NCBI GenBank assembly: GCA_964016885.1
Contig: OZ024742.1
Span: 224,378,001-224,442,000 of the forward strand
DNA length: 64,000 nucleotides
From: Eledone cirrhosa
Lineage: Eukaryota
Direction of reading: 5' to 3'
The position numbers and the translations under genes were made by a program. Each line of letters opens with the position of its first letter. Positions within the stretch are counted from its first letter, which is position 1. The notes below the pieces were generated by a model, which saw nothing but the letters and a program-made list of their open reading frames with translations, had not been told where the DNA came from and did no database searches. Of the stretch, positions 89 through 21,230 are shown piece after piece.

Positions 89-2208
89 ACACGTACATAT
101 ATTAGAATATGAAGCTTTTTGGATTATTATTCTTGAAGTTTACACTGCCGGTTATTCGAACGACTGAAAGCGGAAAATTTGCTCCAGAAGAAAACTTTAC
201 CCCGATATACTAATGCTTTAGAAAGACATATAACTTTAATGGTGTTATTGCTCGACTTGTTAGAAGTAGTATATATCTCTCAGTGAAATCCCATTCTACC
301 TTCTCAATAAAAAAAAAAATGAAGGACACTTTAAATAACGTAGTCCTATATATTCCCTAGATATTTCCCTGGTTGTTCATAGCTGGAACGATATTGATAA
401 GAAGTCTGCTGTATTATAGTTTACATCAACCCGCCGAGGCTAAGTTTGCCTTTCATCCTTACGAGGTTGATAAAATAAAGTACCAGTAATGCACTGGGAT
501 AATTGCTGGCCTTGTGCCAAAAGTAGAAACAATTATAGTTTACATCAGTAGTTTCCAACCATTTCGTTACCAAGTACCTCGTTTACTTAAATACATTTCC
601 TCCATGGAGCCCTAACTATAAATGCTTCTTCGACTTCCCGGATTATTATACGGCGAGAAATATCATCATTGCTCGACTGCTGTAGCAGACAGTCACAGTC
701 CTCCTTCATAATTAGTTGTAGTCCCATGGTCGGGTGATTAACTGTGGACGTTCGTGAGATTTGAACTCACACTTCACAGTGCCAGAACAGATACTACAAT
801 ACTCTAACAATTCCACCATATACCGGTATTTTATTGACCTCGAATGGATGAAAGACAAAGCCTGTTATGGCAGGATTTGGACTCAGAACACAGAAAGACA
901 GAACAAATAGCACAAAATATTCTGTCCGATGTTTTAACGACTCTGCCAATTCGCTGACAAAAGAAAACAATTATATGAGAGAACTTATTGGAGCGTGTAT
1001 AGTGTGTATATATTATGCTTATAACAAAATACTTGAAATTGTTATACAATGATAAAGACAGAAAAATCTTTATATTTAGAGAATAATAGACACCCAGTGT
1101 GTATATATTATGTTTATAACAAACTATTTGAAATTGTAATACAGTGAGAATAACATGTTTATATTTAGAGAAGAATTAATAACCAATAGTGTGCGTATAT
1201 TTTCTACTTGAACTTCAATTTTAGGCCACAATACTACCTTTACAGAGGTGGCAAATTGGCAGAGTTGTTAGAACATTGGATAGAATGCTTCATGGTGTTC
1301 ATTTTCGTTGTGGTCAACTTTGTCTTTCATCCTTTTCAGGCCGATAAGGAATGTACCAGTCCATTCCTGGGGTTGATTCTTTTCTTTTTCACTTCCTCAA
1401 CCCCGCCTCTCTCTCTGTTTCTCTCTGTGACTCCCGCCCCCCACTCTCTCATTCACCATCTCCTTGTCTAGAAGAAATTGACCATATTCAGACCTGGACA
1501 CGCCGTGCATCACTAAGGACACGGCAACGACACCATCATGAGATATAGGTCCAAACTTATAACTTTTCCATACCCTGCAGGGTCAGCAGACTCGAGTTAG
1601 AGAACCACTGGCTTTCATGGAGCTAAATTACCAAAGCAACAGAACATTTTATATAAAAATATATATTTATCGCTTTCATTTTCAATAAAATAAATTCTCT
1701 GGAGTAGCAGTTTAAGACCAACTTCTCTTACATTTTCCTTTATTCTAACGTTTTATTATCTGTATACCATTTTAATCTCCAGCCCTCTATTTCTAATTCT
1801 TTCTTACGTGGCTTAACAACAAAAACTACAACATTATCATTATCATCATCATCATCATCAACAACGGAAAAAATAACAGCAATAACAACAATTTCTGCAG
1901 ACAAAATATTTTCTACAGTAAAATATGTTTATATCTTATTTTTTTCTTGATATTATTCTACATCTCCGCCCCTCTCTCTCTAGCTCATGTTCTCTCCCTC
2001 TCTCTCTTTCTCTCTCTGTCTCTCTGTCTCTCTCTCTATATATATATATGGATATATATACTTACACACAAACATACACACATATGTATATATGTACATG
2101 TATATATATATATGTATACACACACACACACATATATATATAATATATTAATATTACATATATATAATGCATATATGCATAAATATATATACATATATAT
2201 GTACATTA

Positions 2209-2264
<56 letters not shown>

Positions 2265-2318
2265 TTATATATGTATATATATACATATGTATATATATAT
2301 ATATATAAATATATAATT

Positions 2319-2352
<34 letters not shown>

Positions 2353-2495
2353 GTACATTATATATGTATATATATATATATATACATTTGTATATATATA
2401 TATATTATATATATAAATATATATGTGTGTGTGTATTATTCACATGTATGTACAGACACACAGAGATGCACACACACACACACACACACGCACAC

Positions 2496-2536
<41 letters not shown>

Positions 2537-3095
2537 TACACACATATGATATTCATTATCGTCTCCATCAATTACTCTACAGAGCAGGAGACAGATATAT
2601 AGATATATTTACAGTTGTTTTCAAGCAGCTCTATAAAATATCTCTTTCTGTAGAATCGATAAAAATATTTGAACACTTAGAAGTCAACCTTCTAGACGTT
2701 TCCTTCCATCTTTGATCTAATATGTTTATTAAAAGTTGTCTGTCCTCAGACAAGATTACCTCACCACCATAAAGATATTATTTATTGAAAGGAGGCCTGA
2801 TTGTTATTATTATTATTAAAAAAAAAAGGAAAAGAAATAGAAAAAAATAATAGAAACAATTATTATTATTATTATTATTATTGAATGCCATGGTTGACGG
2901 AGGCTCGGCTCTGTAAGGTATAGTAATTTTTAACCGTTAAAACAATTGTAAATTGTTTAAAACTTGAACCAAATTGTTGATAAAGACACCCTCCTCCTCG
3001 TGAGAGGGGTCTTTCTGTCCGTTATTTGGCCCTTCGGGGTTAAATAGCCAGTTATTGGGGTTTTGTACCCAAAATTTCATTTTAAACAAAAAAAC

Positions 3096-5195
3096 ATGGC
3101 TACCAAAAAAAAAAAATTTCATACGTCACTCCCACTCATTCCGTCTTCTTCTTCCTCAATCATCACTACAGGAGAGAGAAGATTGTCTCTCTCCCTCCCT
3201 TCTTTAAATGTGTCTCTCTCCCTACCTTCTCTTTCGCAAGCGACGAAAGAAAAGAAAAGTCTCGTGCAAAGCGTGCAAGGTTTCTCCACGACGACGACGA
3301 CAGCGACGAAACAGGTGTGCGGGAAATACGAAAACCCAGTTCATTCGTCTGACGTCAGGAATAATAGCAGTAGCAGCCGTAATAACAACAGCAACAGTGA
3401 CAATGAAAACAACAGTAGCAGCCGCAACAGCATCACCAGCAGCATAAACAACAACAGCATTAGCAGCAGCAACACCAACAACAACCACAGCAACAGCGGC
3501 GGAGGCAGTAGTCGTAGTACCTGCAGCAACAACAAAAGTACCAGCAGCTCTGACGACAACAACAACAGCAGAGAAAAACCAATCTCATTTGCAGGTATTA
3601 CGAAAAACCTGGAAACAATCCTCATAACAAATGAGGAATTAGAGGAAGCGAAGAAGATGGTGACAAAGAACGGACACCGAGCAATCTGCAAGGCAGCGAA
3701 AAATTTTTTCGAAACCCAAGAGCACTGTACGGTCACGTACCGTACAGTAAGTACAAAATCCCGTAGGGTGGAAAGAGCCACAGAGGCCCAAATACAAAAA
3801 GCCTTGGGGTCTGTGTGGCAGAGGAAAACGCACATCACCCGAGGCAAAAAATACGCCACCGTAGACGTACTTTTTGCCACACCCCAGGAGGCAAAGGCCC
3901 AATCAGTAGTGACCCTAAGGAGCGAGGAAATGGTGTTGGTGCCCTCCTACTGCGGGCAAAAAATTGTGAGGGTCAAACTGACCCACGTCCCCCCCGGAAT
4001 GACCCCTTCTTGGCTGGCCGCGTCTGTCCTCGTCGGAATCGAGGACAAAACAACTGTACTGCAAGTACAGAAAAAAGTAAGAGAAGATTGGGTCGGCTCC
4101 TCCATTGAGATGCTAATCCAAACCAACCAGGAGTGCATCGAAGCTATCCCGGATGTGATAGACTTCGATAACGGCACTCAACTGCCCATAAGTGTTGAGG
4201 GCAAACGCCCGAAATGCTTTCGCTGTGGATCGAAGACTCACCTCAGGGCCTTCTGCAACGAGAAGACCATGAGAAAGGAGAAAACCCCCCTCCTCCCGAA
4301 TCCGGTTCCACGGCTACCAGCAACAGGACAAGCGGCAACCAGGAACGATAGGTCCGTGGCACCCATACCCACTCCACGGAAATCAAAGACAGCAGCAGCA
4401 GTGGAAATATTAACAACAACAACAGCAATACCAAATGCAGCTGCAACAGAGACTCCAGTGCAAACATCACCAACAACAACAAGTGAAAGAGTGGAGCTGG
4501 TACCCCTCCCCGACCTTACAGAATCAGACATGGAGTGTGAGGTGGGAGAGGGATGGCAAAAGGTCTCAAGAAGGCACAAACGCAGAAGCAGCGCATCGTC
4601 GCCTTTGAAAAGGGAGGAAAGAAATGAGAAAAGGGTAAAGTCTACTGCAAAGAGACCCACAGCAGCAACACCACCAACACCATCACCACCCACACCAGCA
4701 CCACCATCACCACCGGCGACAACCCCACCGCCAACAACACCTTCAACACCACCACCACAAGCACCAACATCGCAAACACAACAACAAAACACACACACCC
4801 AGCAACAACGACAAGAAAATAGCAGAACCACACCCCACCCCCAGAAAAACAAATGCACGGCAATAAACACACACAACAAGAAACTAATGACTTACATAAT
4901 TGAACACACAGACATTTCACAACAGGACTACATAATACCAGCACCAATCAAAACGCCAACTAACATAAGACTGCTAAAAATAGCACAGAAACAATACACA
5001 AACATTAAAACGAAATTCCCCAACGCAGTTGGTGATTTCAGGGACCTAGGAGGAACCATTAATCGAAGAGTATATTCAGACATTCTCTTAGAAGAGCCGA
5101 CGACCAGCCGAAGGGACGATTCAACGGTCCCTTCACCAGACGATCAAGTGAAAAGGGATGTAAAAACCATCCCTCCTCTACCAAAAATACGGTAA
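3096..5195 (+). CDS. LINE ORF1 (gag-like nucleic-acid-binding protein with CCHC zinc knuckle)
   Basis: Open frame from ATG at 3096 (the track's 3063 start is TTG). Contains CFRCGSKTHLRAFC (CX2CX4HX4C) plus Ser/Asn- and Pro/Thr-rich low-complexity segments. Ends 35 bp before ORF2. Confidence 0.85.
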   Translation: MATKKKKFHTSLPLIPSSSSSIITTGERRLSLSLPSLNVSLSLPSLSQATKEKKSLVQSVQGFSTTTTTATKQVCGKYENPVHSSDVRNNSSSSRNNNSNSDNENNSSSRNSITSSINNNSISSSNTNNNHSNSGGGSSRSTCSNNKSTSSSDDNNNSREKPISFAGITKNLETILITNEELEEAKKMVTKNGHRAICKAAKNFFETQEHCTVTYRTVSTKSRRVERATEAQIQKALGSVWQRKTHITRGKKYATVDVLFATPQEAKAQSVVTLRSEEMVLVPSYCGQKIVRVKLTHVPPGMTPSWLAASVLVGIEDKTTVLQVQKKVREDWVGSSIEMLIQTNQECIEAIPDVIDFDNGTQLPISVEGKRPKCFRCGSKTHLRAFCNEKTMRKEKTPLLPNPVPRLPATGQAATRNDRSVAPIPTPRKSKTAAAVEILTTTTAIPNAAATETPVQTSPTTTSERVELVPLPDLTESDMECEVGEGWQKVSRRHKRRSSASSPLKREERNEKRVKSTAKRPTAATPPTPSPPTPAPPSPPATTPPPTTPSTPPPQAPTSQTQQQNTHTQQQRQENSRTTPHPQKNKCTAINTHNKKLMTYIIEHTDISQQDYIIPAPIKTPTNIRLLKIAQKQYTNIKTKFPNAVGDFRDLGGTINRRVYSDILLEEPTTSRRDDSTVPSPDDQVKRDVKTIPPLPKIR

Positions 5196-11662: not shown

Positions 11663-12287
11663 TCCCGCCGAGGTTAACTTTGCCTTTCATCCTTACGGGG
11701 TCGATAAAATAAAGTACCAGTAATGCACTGGATAATTGCTGGCCTTGTGCCAAAAGTAGAAACAATTATTTATTGACTTTGCCTTTCATCCTTACGGGGT
11801 CGATAAAATAAAGTACCAGTAATGCACTGGTTAATTGCTGGACTTGTGCCTAAAGTAGAAACAATTATTTATTCAAAAATTTATTTAGGTACTATACTAA
11901 AGTAGTATAATTGTTTCTACTTTAGGCACAAGGCCAGCAATTGTGCATTACTGGTACTTTATTTTATCGACCCTGTAAGGATGAAAGGCAAAGTTAACCT
12001 CGGCGGGATTTGAACTCAGATCATAAAGGGCCTTTGCTGCAAAGCATGGCGTCCGACCCTCTACCGATACTGCCAATCCACCGTCCATACTAAAGTAGTA
12101 TAATTGTTTCTACTTTTGGCACAAGGCCAGCAATTATCCCAGTGTATTACTGGTACTTTATTTTATCGACCCCGGAAGGTTGAAAGGCAAAGTTAACCTC
12201 GACGGAATTTGAACTCTGACCGTAAAGGGACGTAACTATGCTAGAAAGCCTGGCGCCCGACCCTCTACCGATACTGCCAATCCACCA
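11663..12287. mobile_element. Cluster of four tRNA-derived SINE copies (family S1; two partial plus, two minus)
   Basis: Shared core GCCTTTCATCCTTACGGGGTCGATAAAATAAAGTACCAG, tRNA-like head (TGGCAGTATCGG..GAGTTCAAATCC) and tail GGCCTTGTGCCAAAAGTAGAAACAATT. More than 25 copies in the window, e.g. about 428, 9149, 24370, 36255, 40389, 50410 and 52350. Confidence 0.85.
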
Positions 12288-17807: not shown

Positions 17808-17878
17808 GTACAAATAACAATAGTGTAAACATATTTCTGTATGTCAACACGTCTAATGTATATAGATAAATGCATTTA

Positions 17879-18737
17879 CGAGGTGTGTCAGAAAAGTTCC
17901 AGGACTGATGTCACAAAAGATTTATTTCAAACCCAAACTTCACACGAAGAATTTTCTCCTTCAAAGTAATCCCCCTGGAGTATGTAACTGTAATCTTAGC
18001 TCTCTGCAGCGATCAAACTTTTTTCTTCATAATTTTATATACATTTCCTCTGATTCGTCAAGCAATGAGCACAGAGCAACGAACAAACTTGAAAACTCCG
18101 TCAGAAGCACTGGGATTGCTGCAGCAAGTGTATGGAGATGAGACGATGGTTACGCTCACGTGTTTTTGAGTTGTGCAAGAGGTTTAAAAAAGGACCCGAG
18201 GACGTGGAAGATGACCCCAGGAGCGGAAGGCCCTCAACAACCAGGACTGATGTCAACGTTGAGCACGTCAGGCAGATGATGCGTAGCGATCATCGGCTGA
18301 CGGTTCGACTGATGGCAAATAAGCTGGGCATGAATTTGGACATGCGGAAAGTCTGCGCGAAGATGGTGCCAAAACTGCTGAACGATGACCAGAAGGGTCG
18401 ACGCATGCAAGTGTGCTAGGACATGCTCGAGCGTCTTGAAACCGAACCAGACTTGCTAGGGACAGTCATCACCGGTGATGAGTCATGGATCTTCGAGTAC
18501 GACCCGGAGGGGACCCGTTTTGAAGACGTGGACGACATCAAAAAGGCTGTGACGACGGAACTGCGGAGGATCCCGGAAGAATCCTTCCAGGAGTGCATGC
18601 AAGCGTGGCAGAAAAGGATGGAAAAGTGCATTAGACTCCAGGGAGATTACCTTGAAGGAGAAAACTCTTAGTGTGAAGTTTGGGTTTGAAATAAATCTTT
18701 TGTGACATCAGTCCTCGAACTTTTCTGACACACCTCG
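17879..18737 (+). mobile_element. Internally deleted mariner (Tc1/mariner) DNA transposon
   Basis: TIRs of about 67 bp (CGAGGTGTGTCAGAAAAGTTC...) with TA on both sides. Transposase remnants EDDPRSGRPST, KMVPKLL and ITGDESWIFEYDPE are fused directly to C-terminal GTRFEDVDDIK; in-frame stop at 18417-18419. Confidence 0.93.
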
Positions 18738-18774
18738 TATATATATAAGTATGTATTTATGTATGTATATATAT

Positions 18775-19052: not shown

Positions 19053-19329
19053 TATATCTAGCCTGATTGTTTTTTCGTTGCTTTGGTATTAAGTGGCTAG
19101 GCTCGCCTGCCGCAGTTTTCAATTTGTCATGTTATCTAACGTATGTTATTACTCTAAGGTGTCACAGCCTAATCGAGTGCTTTGCTGCATATTCCTAATT
19201 GCATATCGTTAGCTTGGCCACGGCCAAAACTTCGATTTTACTAAACTTCCATTTGTATATATTAGAAAGTGAGGTTTTTTTTACAAAATGAAAAATAACC
19301 GAGGTGTCCTACACGAGTGAAAGTATAAA

Positions 19330-19618
19330 AAAAAAAAGTTGAAATCAAAAATACAACTAGAGTCTTATTTAAAAATATATATATATATTTATTTGGTTCC
19401 TTTACCGGTTTCGCAGTTCTTCTGCTTTTCAAAAGTAGAGTTGAGATGGAGGGTCTGTGGTTTTTCTCACATTGTTGATGTGAGAAAAACCACAGACCCT
19501 CCATCTCGACTCTACTTTTGAAAAGCAGAAGAACTGCGAAACCGGTAAAGGAACCAAATAAATATATATATTTAAAAAAAAATAAGACTCCAGTTGCATT
19601 TTCGATTTCATCTTTTTT

Positions 19619-19620
<2 letters not shown>
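19330..19620. repeat. Palindrome with arms of about 140 bp (family D), each arm containing a U3-A8 hammerhead-like core
   Basis: Centre about 19473-19477. Plus arm reads TTGAAAA-GCAG AAGAA CTGC-GAAA-CCGG-TA (19518-19547). Confidence 0.75.
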
Positions 19621-19668
<48 letters not shown>

Positions 19669-19798: not shown

Positions 19799-19947
19799 TC
19801 TATATCTATATCTATCTATATATATATAAATAACGAAGGAAGTGTGGTAAGGAACCAGATGGACCATAACGCACCAGAGTTAGGGTAGTATATTGGGGAA
19901 TAGGAAAATGTTTAACCTCGACGGCAGAGCTCAAGTCGTTTCGACGG

Positions 19948-19995
<48 letters not shown>

Positions 19996-20718: not shown

Positions 20719-20995
<277 letters not shown>

Positions 20996-21230
20996 ATATA
21001 TATATATATATAGGAAAAGAGTCAGGACCCAGACGACTGAGCTGCGGCCGTTTCGTCAGCTATACCTTAACTAACCTCGTCGGGTTCCTCACTCTTTTCC
21101 TATTACCCACTCTACTGCCCTAAGTATCGAGTACTCTGGTGCGTTATAGTCCATCTGGTTCCTTACCACACTTCCTTCGTTATATATATTATATATATAT
21201 ATATACACAGGCTTCTATGCATGGTTGTCT

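What the first reader, a model, noticed from the sequence alone, without database searches (positions are those of the whole stretch)
19330..19620. Family D: hammerhead core with compensatory U3-A8 in place of C3-G8
Seen: UUGAAAA-GCAG(aagaa)CUGC-GAAA-CCGG-UA on both arms of a palindrome. Known: positions 3 and 8 form a Watson-Crick pair in the active HHR, so U3-A8 is a covariant that CUGANGA searches miss. Caveat: stem I is only about 3 bp plus a bulged extension.
Basis: partly seen in the sequence, partly recalled or inferred. Interest (0 to 1): 0.7.

Follow-up and report, generated by a model that had tools for sequence, protein, structure and literature searches.

The report
Penelope stub with known U3-A8 hammerhead
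This palindrome is a short back-to-back stub of a very abundant Penelope-type jumping gene, and its self-cutting-RNA motif has a swapped core base pair that is already in print; this copy would fold into a plain hairpin, but where the family's copies begin hints that the motif cuts a small share of the element's RNA in living cells.

Summary
The motif is real, on both arms, and not chance. The palindrome (really ~19255-19627) is two head-to-head, 5'-truncated copies of the pseudo-LTR end of a Penelope-like retrotransposon (RT + C-terminal GIY-YIG; Neptune/Nematis-type motifs), with about 12,000 exact motif matches in this 3-Gb genome. U3-A8 is published for natural hammerheads (PMC3088659) and for Penelope minimal hammerheads, including opposite-strand pairs (PMC4209133). 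Within the family U3-A8 is fixed by descent (no C3-G8 copy; flanks equally conserved). Support comes from sister families that keep U3-A8 while stem II changes compensatorily. The two arms cannot be dimer partners: a read-through RNA is predicted to be a 145-bp hairpin. Side results: 51 of 100 copies start in one 19-nt zone ~30 nt behind a TATA box (likely the RNA start); copies starting at the predicted cut are ~2.7-fold above two flanking control sites (a hint of in vivo cleavage); a sister family with A13C in the core reached 4,167 copies. This scan noted the same kind of element before on other DNA. Verdict: new member of a known kind.

The parts
19255..19327 (-). Tail extension of the left arm (+81 to about +148 after A17). 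In tandem copies this sequence runs on toward the ORF start, so it is the longer of two 3' end points
   Evidence: 94% identical to copy L128 over 19472-19256; 3' ends at +146..149 in 59 of 100 copies; outer end ambiguous by a few nt within TA repeats
19328..19472 (-). Left arm: 5'-truncated pseudo-LTR copy starting at -69 relative to A17
19403..19432 (-). Hammerhead motif of the left arm: U3 = 19432, A17 = 19403
19473..19476 (.). Short non-element spacer at the head-to-head junction; junction sequences differ among family copies
19477..19627 (+). Right arm: 5'-truncated pseudo-LTR copy starting at -70 and ending at about +80 (no tail)
   Evidence: 3' ends at +80 in 37 of 100 copies
19515..19550 (+). 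Hammerhead motif of the right arm: stem I 5' strand 19515-17, core U3-A9 19518-24, stem II 19525-37, G12-A15.1 19538-41, CCGG 19542-45, U16.1 19546, A17 19547 (predicted cut after it), stem I 3' strand 19548-50
19622..19663 (.). (TA)n microsatellite at the right end, likely the insertion target; a target-site duplication cannot be resolved
   Evidence: 3' ends of family copies run into TA repeats

Best explanation
The palindrome is an insertion stub of a Penelope-like retrotransposon made of two short head-to-head copies of the element's pseudo-LTR end, each carrying a minimal U3-A8 hammerhead motif that likely cleaves only weakly and as a dimer in the parent element's RNA and is predicted to be inert in this copy. 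Shown: family, copy number, link to an RT + GIY-YIG ORF whose ATG lies 170 nt after A17 in tandem copies, the two 3' end points (+80, +148), the 5' end cluster (-74..-56), and the TA target. Inferred: RNA starts ~30 nt behind TATAAAA at about -71; the element's protein nicks both strands of a (TA)n site and starts reverse transcription internally at +80 and +148 (as shown in vitro for another Penelope-like element, PMC11167929); each cDNA runs off the RNA 5' end after ~150-220 nt; the two cDNAs are joined head to head. Most templates were uncut, since the copies run across the cut site; a small share, roughly 1% by a rough correction of the counts, was likely cut at GUA. Catalysis is likely dispensable for amplification.
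For: Family: 11,820 exact motif matches, 0 for the reversed control; 12,331 for a downstream anchor. PLE link: GIY-YIG (Pfam E 4e-8) upstream and collinear with the arm in L008, the same junction in many further copies, RVT_1 hits below the curated cut-off, DKG, CX4CxxC and CxxC..H..H motifs; in 9 of 30 N-terminal ORF loci the whole left arm lies collinear upstream of the ORF. Orientation: among 99 neighbouring pairs of the first 100 matches, 24 are outward-facing -/+ pairs within 5 kb against 1 +/- and 1 -/-; 54 of 100 anchored copies have an inverted partner. Ends: 51 of 100 5' ends at -74..-56, none at -94..-75, TATAAAA at -101; 3' ends at +80 (37) and +146..149 (59). Sister family G has the same cluster (10 of 29 at -80..-55) behind CATAAAA at the same spacing. 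Ribozyme constraint: families D, E, F and G (own ORFs at 48-58% aa identity shown for E and G) keep U3, U4, G5, A6, A8, A9, G10.1-C11.1, CCGG and U16.1, while stem II changes on both sides (G-C,C-G,A-U,G-C / G-C,C-G,A-U,U-A / G-C,A-U,U-A,G-C), loop II is replaced, and N7 and H17 vary. The CACCUU form (46-47 of 85 copies) folds as the hammerhead-type dimer within 1.4 kcal/mol of the MFE. Cut footprint: patterns for 5' ends at 0/+1, -10/-9 and +6/+7 gave 115, 58 and 41 hits; true ends were 24, 16 and 24 of the first 30 of each, so ~92-96 against ~31-35 and ~33, with similar probe retention (70, 65, 70 of 86).
Against: No RNA data and no cleavage assay. U3-A8 never alternates with C3-G8 within the family (0 matches), nor was C3-G8 seen among 30 CCGG-type sister loci (26 U3-A8, 2 U3-G8, 1 U3-C8, 1 C3-A8), so 3-8 covariation itself is not shown here. 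Family G fixed A13C (97 of the first 100 of 4,167 matches), so core conservation in this clade is not strict. Stem I is only 2-4 bp, and the window's CUACUU form favours an alternative hairpin (active dimer -15.5 against MFE -21.5 kcal/mol; worse for E and G). The arm alone folds no better than shuffles (z -0.65). The cut-site excess rests on two control sites, and junction microhomology is not fully controlled. The start-site reading is from DNA ends only, and the D. virilis Penelope promoter is reported as TATA-less (PMC2377424 abstract). The 100 anchored copies are the first 100 on contig C1 and include both arms of some insertions, so they are not all independent.
Confidence: 0.8

Rival explanations
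1. Same Penelope-like stub, but the U3-A8 motif is a catalytically dead relic across this clade. It is kept as a protein-binding or structural signal or simply by descent, and the excess of ends at +1 comes from junction chemistry.
For: A13C is fixed in a sister family of 4,167 copies; most copies run across the cut site; active folds are not the MFE for most forms; hammerhead mutants did not affect insertion in vitro in PMC11167929; PMC8557442 section 15 notes that elements lacking hammerheads proliferate well.
Against: The pattern of constraint across families D, E and F matches the hammerhead consensus position by position, with N7 and H17 free; U3-A8 cores are reported active in vitro; there is a local peak of 5' ends at the predicted cut.
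Confidence: 0.25
2. One reading: the palindrome is a functional unit in which the two arms form the active dimeric ribozyme.
For: The motif is intact on both arms and stem III is self-complementary.
Against: The arms are on opposite strands; either read-through RNA folds into a long hairpin (-212 and -222 kcal/mol) with all 30 motif nucleotides paired to the other arm. The TATA box is absent from the stub, which starts at -69/-70 while TATA lies at -101.
Confidence: 0.03
3. The palindrome is a self-standing foldback or MITE-like element that multiplies as a unit.
For: Inverted arms, TA context and many similar palindromes.
Against: Junctions and arm lengths differ from copy to copy, the arms are asymmetric (+80 and +148), and the sequence is collinear with an RT + GIY-YIG element.
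Confidence: 0.04
4. The stub arises by self-priming or fold-back on an antisense template (Arkhipova et al. 2013 model) instead of two independent priming events on the sense RNA.
For: Head-to-head orientation and short palindromic junctions are what PMC3846280 explains this way; several junctions here are symmetric.
Against: It does not by itself explain the sharp 5' edge ~30 nt behind a sense-strand TATA box in two families. Partner arms often start at different positions and have different 3' ends.
Confidence: 0.2

Closest known systems
U3-A8 minimal hammerheads in pLTRs of Cercyon Penelope-like elements of Schistosoma mansoni (Cervera and De la Pena 2014, PMC4209133; parts 1-2 of 4 read, 2 supplement files searched, file 1 not available)
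   Same: U3-A8 core, type I, short stem I, G10.1-C11.1, palindromic 15.2-16.2 region, location in the pLTR, mostly truncated single copies, opposite-strand pairs ~100-700 bp apart
   Different: Stem II is 4 bp (not 7-8), there is no extra nucleotide between A9 and G10.1, there is a CCGG insert in stem III, the copy number is ~10-fold higher with little sequence heterogeneity, and the host genome differs
Natural U3-A8 hammerheads (Perreault et al. 2011, PMC3088659; section 8 and passages read)
   Same: C3-G8 replaced by U3-A8; described there as compensatory and active in vitro
   Different: That paper does not tie them to Penelope elements in the section read; this motif has no closed stem III
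EN+ Penelope-like elements of the Neptune/Nematis type (Craig et al. 2021, PMC8557442; passages and section 15 read; Arkhipova et al. 2013, PMC3846280; passages read)
   Same: RT with DKG, CX2-5CxxC linker, C-terminal GIY-YIG with CCHH, partial tandem pLTR, inverted 5'-truncated copy, one-sided tail, (TA)n bias
   Different: The tail is ~68 nt (30-40 bp in those papers); the clade is assigned by motifs only, no tree was built
PAc Poseidon element of Anolis (Frangieh et al. 2024, PMC11167929; parts 1-2 of 4 read)
   Same: Two internal RT start sites define the tail; both strands are cut and extended; AT-rich target; uncut RNA is the main template
   Different: PAc has C3-G8 and its ORF starts within the ribozyme; here the ATG is 170 nt after A17. 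They saw no RNA-seq ends at the cut, whereas here DNA ends show a small peak
Non-LTR retrozymes (Li et al. 2026, bioRxiv 10.64898/2026.07.22.740005; part 1 of 5 read)
   Same: Type I hammerhead related to PLE pLTRs
   Different: Retrozymes are head-to-tail tandem arrays; this is a head-to-head pair from an element with its own ORF

Membership tests
Minimal type I hammerhead of Penelope-like elements | Core 3-9 and G12-A13-A14-A15.1..U16.1-H17 with a Watson-Crick 3-8 pair | tested here: met
   UUGAAAA, GAAA, UA with U3-A8; U3 85/85, A8 85/85, A13 86/86 in anchored copies
Minimal type I hammerhead of Penelope-like elements | Stem II closed by G10.1-C11.1 with compensatory changes among families | tested here: met
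   Structure-anchored table of families D, E, F, G. The formal pair count on alignment A2 was weak and lost the D/G stem II cells to gaps (covariation 0.127, 11/500 shuffles)
Minimal type I hammerhead of Penelope-like elements | Palindromic stem III region allowing a dimer | tested here: met
   ACCGGU self-duplex -8.3 kcal/mol; CCGG shared by D, E, F, G, though it was part of the search patterns
Minimal type I hammerhead of Penelope-like elements | Stem I of 4-5 bp (2 bp in D. virilis) | tested here: inconclusive
   3 bp in this copy, 4 bp in 46-47 of 85 family copies, 2-3 bp in sister families
Minimal type I hammerhead of Penelope-like elements | Extra unpaired nucleotide between A9 and G10.1 (usual in the published consensus) | tested here: not met
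   G10.1 follows A9 directly in D, E, F, G; a common trait of the consensus, not part of the catalytic core
Minimal type I hammerhead of Penelope-like elements | Located in the pLTR | tested here: met
   Downstream of the GIY-YIG stop and upstream of the ORF start in tandem copies
Minimal type I hammerhead of Penelope-like elements | Self-cleavage after H17 | not testable with these tools
   Indirect only: ~2.7-fold excess of genomic 5' ends at the predicted site
Natural C3-G8 to U3-A8 covariation | Both pair types in homologous sequences | tested here: not met
   0 C3-G8 copies of family D; none among 30 sister loci. C3-G8 motifs occur in other repeats of this genome, but their homology was not shown
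EN+ Penelope-like element, Neptune/Nematis type | RT followed by C-terminal GIY-YIG in one ORF | tested here: met
   In longer family copies: (RVT_1 below its curated cut-off; the copies seen are broken or partial)
EN+ Penelope-like element, Neptune/Nematis type | DKG, CX2-5CxxC linker, CCHH in the endonuclease | tested here: met
   IKEADKGSTVV, CGRSNCGTC, LYAIKCKGCNEDYIG, H..H; motif definitions; excludes Hydra (DKT, no CCHH), Penelope/Poseidon (no linker) and Naiad (N-terminal EN)
EN+ Penelope-like element, Neptune/Nematis type | Partial tandem pLTR, inverted 5'-truncated copy, one-sided tail, (TA)n target | tested here: met
EN+ Penelope-like element, Neptune/Nematis type | Placement in the RT phylogeny | not tested
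   No reference PLE proteins were fetched; no tree was built
Non-LTR retrozyme | Head-to-tail tandem units each with a hammerhead | tested here: not met
   1 same-strand pair within 5 kb among 99 neighbouring pairs
MITE / foldback DNA element | Uniform ends and interior among copies | tested here: not met
   Variable junctions and asymmetric arms

The most novel reading that the evidence does not exclude
The ends of thousands of insertions record the element's RNA life cycle: a TATA-driven start at about -71, two internal RT starts, and a minor peak exactly at GUA showing that a U3-A8 minimal hammerhead cuts in vivo. A sister lineage that fixed A13C in the catalytic core still reached over 4,000 copies. 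The clade is thus a natural active-versus-mutant experiment: either hammerhead catalysis is dispensable for Penelope amplification, or A13C is an undescribed tolerated core variant in the U3-A8 background.
Probability: 0.35. Interest if true: 0.6.

Novelty: new member of a known kind. Interest (0 to 1): 0.27.

Why it matters
As flagged, little: the U3-A8 variant, its place in Penelope pLTRs and the inverted stub with a one-sided tail are all published. It does confirm that CUGANGA-based and Rfam searches miss at least ~19,000 hammerhead-like motifs in this genome (11,820 + 3,535 + 4,167 exact-pattern hits; one search includes some chance hits and mutated family D copies). The useful part is the side evidence on an open question, what hammerheads do in Penelope-like elements (PMC8557442 calls it unclear). 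A high-copy family whose ends can be counted base by base, beside a sister family with a fixed core mutation, makes that question testable by genome counting and a simple in vitro assay.

Tried and rejected
Rfam scan of the window: no match at gathering thresholds. RNA evidence: no RNA holder listed; the four runs laid were contigs of unrecorded type. Their depth rises about five-fold between 1440-1453 and 1468-1481 of L095, the place of the 5' cluster, but contigs cannot show RNA starts and the best run may be the genome's own sample, so I do not count it. Within-family conservation as a test of function: rejected, since flanks are as conserved as the core. Thermodynamic z-score of the arm: not informative (z -0.65, 1.00, -0.64). 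First cross-family alignment had three sequences on the wrong strand and was redone; the formal pair count is weakened by gaps. Splice-acceptor reading of the 5' cluster (CAG|ATGTG): disfavoured because several TA-flanked copies include the A and G before the junction, and no copy joined to an upstream exon was seen. A hammerhead for the other PLE in L031: no clean match. The ORF link for family F is not secure: the only hit (L158) is inverted and resembles the family G protein. Literature: 'hammerhead + U3-A8' gave 1 paper; 'hammerhead + C3U + G8A' gave 1, whose shown passage did not address this pair; 'hammerhead + A13C' gave 0; a five-term A13 search gave 10 papers, and passages from two showed no fixed A13 change. 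These searches cover only the held library, so 'A13C not in print' is not established. A paper on dimeric cleavage of Penelope-associated hammerhead variants (Lunse et al., recalled, not seen) is not held and may list such variants, as may unseen supplements. A search with a guessed host taxon gave nothing relevant; the host was not determined. One notebook entry says 11 of 30 collinear loci; the recount is 9 of 30.

Full report
Observation. The sequence is as described. An inverted repeat has 145-nt arms at 19328-19472 and 19478-19622, 92% complementary. Each arm, read outward, holds UUGAAAA, a 4-bp stem II (GCAG/CUGC, loop AAGAA), GAAA, CCGG and UA, with U3 at 19518 (+) and 19432 (-) and a 3-bp stem I. 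A strict descriptor finds these 2 hits in the window and none in 300 shuffled windows. Rfam finds nothing in the window at gathering thresholds.

What it belongs to. The window lies in an unnamed 3.0-Gb eukaryotic assembly. An exact 28-nt pattern of the motif has 11,820 matches and its reversed control none; a downstream anchor has 12,331. Longer copies continue upstream through about 1.1 kb of non-coding sequence into a GIY-YIG domain (L008, Pfam E 4e-8) and an RT region (RVT_1 scores are below the curated cut-off). The protein has DKG, a CX4CxxC linker and two cysteines within the GIY-YIG core followed by two histidines, which by the motif definitions in PMC8557442 (passages) points to the Neptune/Nematis type; I built no tree. 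In 9 of 30 loci found with the ORF's N-terminal part, the whole left arm lies collinear upstream of the ORF, whose ATG is 170 nt after A17. The motif therefore sits in the pseudo-LTR, which is both the 3' end of one unit and the 5' leader of the next.

Anatomy of insertions. Among the first 100 motif matches, 24 of 99 neighbouring pairs are outward-facing within 5 kb, against 1 inward and 1 same-strand. I then took the first 100 matches of the downstream anchor, all on contig C1, and mapped their ends on a natural tandem copy. 3' ends fall at +80 (37 copies) or +146..149 (59) after A17. 5' ends fall at -74..-56 in 51, with none at -94..-75; 32 lie further upstream, 5 at -55..0 and 12 at +1..+32. 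54 have an inverted partner. The window copy is typical: arms start at -69 and -70 and end at +148 and +80, so the element spans about 19255-19627 and the left arm has the tail. TATAAAA begins at -101, 30 nt before the edge. Sister family G shows CATAAAA at the same spacing and 10 of 29 ends at -80..-55. I infer that the edge is the RNA 5' end. Inverted truncated pLTRs, one-sided tails and (TA)n bias are described PLE features (PMC3846280 passages; PMC8557442 passages and section 15). Two internal RT starts, extension of both strands and use of uncut RNA were shown in vitro for another PLE (PMC11167929 parts 1-2).

Is it a ribozyme? Within the family U3 and A8 are invariant (85 of 85 each), but the flanks are as conserved, so this is descent, and no C3-G8 copy exists. 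Across families the evidence is better. A pattern that excludes family D's stem II start finds 3,535 matches against 173 for the control; by eye, 95 of the first 100 have A8, 4 G8 and 1 C8. Of 30 such loci, 26 are U3-A8, 2 U3-G8, 1 U3-C8 and 1 C3-A8. Families E and F have a different stem II that still pairs, a different loop, and free N7 and H17. Family E has its own GIY-YIG upstream at 55-58% identity. This is the hammerhead pattern of constraint, with the caveat that parts of it were in the search pattern and that a formal pair count on eight sequences was weak. C3-G8 motifs exist in other repeats here, but I did not show homology, so 3-8 covariation is not demonstrated in this genome.

Against strict catalysis. 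Three copies in this window (U3 at 20959, 36119, 45781, minus strand) belong to family G: U3-A8, stem II GCAU/AUGC, but GCAA instead of GAAA. It has 4,167 exact matches, 97 of the first 100 with A13C (counted by eye), and its own ORF at 48-52% identity. That A13 is a conserved core residue is stated in PMC7151607 and PMC2837043 (passages); the effect of A13C specifically I did not find.

Folding. The ACCGGU duplex is -8.3 kcal/mol. The 4-bp stem I form (46-47 of 85 copies) gives a hammerhead-type dimer at -21.1 against an MFE of -22.5, while the window's 3-bp form gives -15.5 against -21.5. A transcript through the whole palindrome folds into a long hairpin (-212 or -222 kcal/mol) with the motif fully paired to the other arm. 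The two arms cannot be each other's dimer partner, and the stub lacks the TATA box, so this copy is predicted to be inert.

A footprint of cutting. If cut RNA were sometimes copied, 5' ends would pile up at +1. Matched patterns for ends at 0/+1, -10/-9 and +6/+7 gave 115, 58 and 41 genome-wide hits. In the first 30 of each, 24, 16 and 24 were true ends (25 and 18 if distant upstream pieces are ignored), giving ~92-96 against ~31-35 and ~33. Probe retention was similar (70, 65, 70 of 86). The ratio is 2.6-2.8 (nominal p ~1e-7), but two control sites cannot define the background and junction microhomology varies by site. I treat it as a hint that roughly 1% of templates were cut.

What is known. 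PMC3088659 section 8 reports natural U3-A8 cores and prior in vitro activity. PMC4209133 (parts 1-2; supplements searched in part) reports U3-A8 minimal hammerheads in S. mansoni PLEs (~1,300 hits), opposite-strand pairs 100-700 bp apart, and low activity that needs dimers. Earlier notes of this scan describe the same kind of element in this and other genomes, including the 5' cluster and a cut footprint; none near this place, and the word A13C was met in none. These are unchecked AI notes, and I saw them after forming the reading and designing the tests.

Verdict. Real, correctly parsed, and a new member of a known kind. Interest 0.27. The most novel reading, in vivo cutting by the U3-A8 core beside a thriving A13C sister lineage, has about 0.35 probability and would merit about 0.6.

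Noticed in passing
window minus strand, U3 at 20959, 36119, 45781: Three 5'-truncated copies of sister PLE family G: U3-A8 core with A13C (GCAA). 4,167 exact matches genome-wide, 97 of the first 100 with A13C; own GIY-YIG ORF at 48-52% identity.
   Followed up: partly
L139-L166 (e.g. L143, L149, L146, L151, L161): Two more U3-A8 + CCGG families (E: stem II GAUGG/CCAUC, H17 = C; F: GAUG/CAUC, N7 = U), about 3,500 pattern hits together with some noise; E is linked to its own PLE ORF.
   Followed up: partly
family D, stem I positions 2.4-2.5: Two subfamilies: CACCUU (4-bp stem I, 46-47 of 85) and CUACUU (3-bp, 38 of 85; the window's form), which differ in predicted ability to form the active dimer.
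   Followed up: partly
L113 1953 and 2420 (+): C3-G8 hammerhead motifs (CUGAUGA, stem II GUUG/CAAC, CUAG, 7-bp stem I) 467 nt apart on one strand, retrozyme-like.
   Followed up: no
L075, L047, L080, L032, L125: Further C3-G8 minimal hammerhead motifs with CG, AT or UAUAUA stem III regions in other repeats.
   Followed up: no
L031 3537-5069 (+): A 511-aa RT + GIY-YIG frame of another PLE family with an inverted copy at 2205-3480; no clean hammerhead match found in its 3' region.
   Followed up: partly
L150: The hammerhead 5' half and stem II start are tandemly triplicated upstream of a U3-G8 motif.
   Followed up: no
window 17870-18740: Broken transposase-like frames (HTH_32, E 1.5e-6, below cut-off) between ends that look like inverted repeats; resembles a mariner element (recalled, not tested).
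   Followed up: partly
window 19836-19950, 21060-21150, and next to the family G copies near 35800 and 45900-46130: A recurring short repeat in TA runs containing 'GACGAAAC/GTCGAAAC..GCTCAGYCGTC' segments, possibly another pLTR remnant or ribozyme-like motif.
   Followed up: no
window 11677-12286, 26503-26674, ~35900-36400: A dispersed SINE-like repeat (CATTACTGGTACTTTATTTTATC...) with local tandem duplications.
   Followed up: no
window 19340-19360 against 19590-19610: Four of the few differences between the arms are G-to-A on the + strand of the left arm, clustered within about 15 nt; too few to interpret.
   Followed up: no
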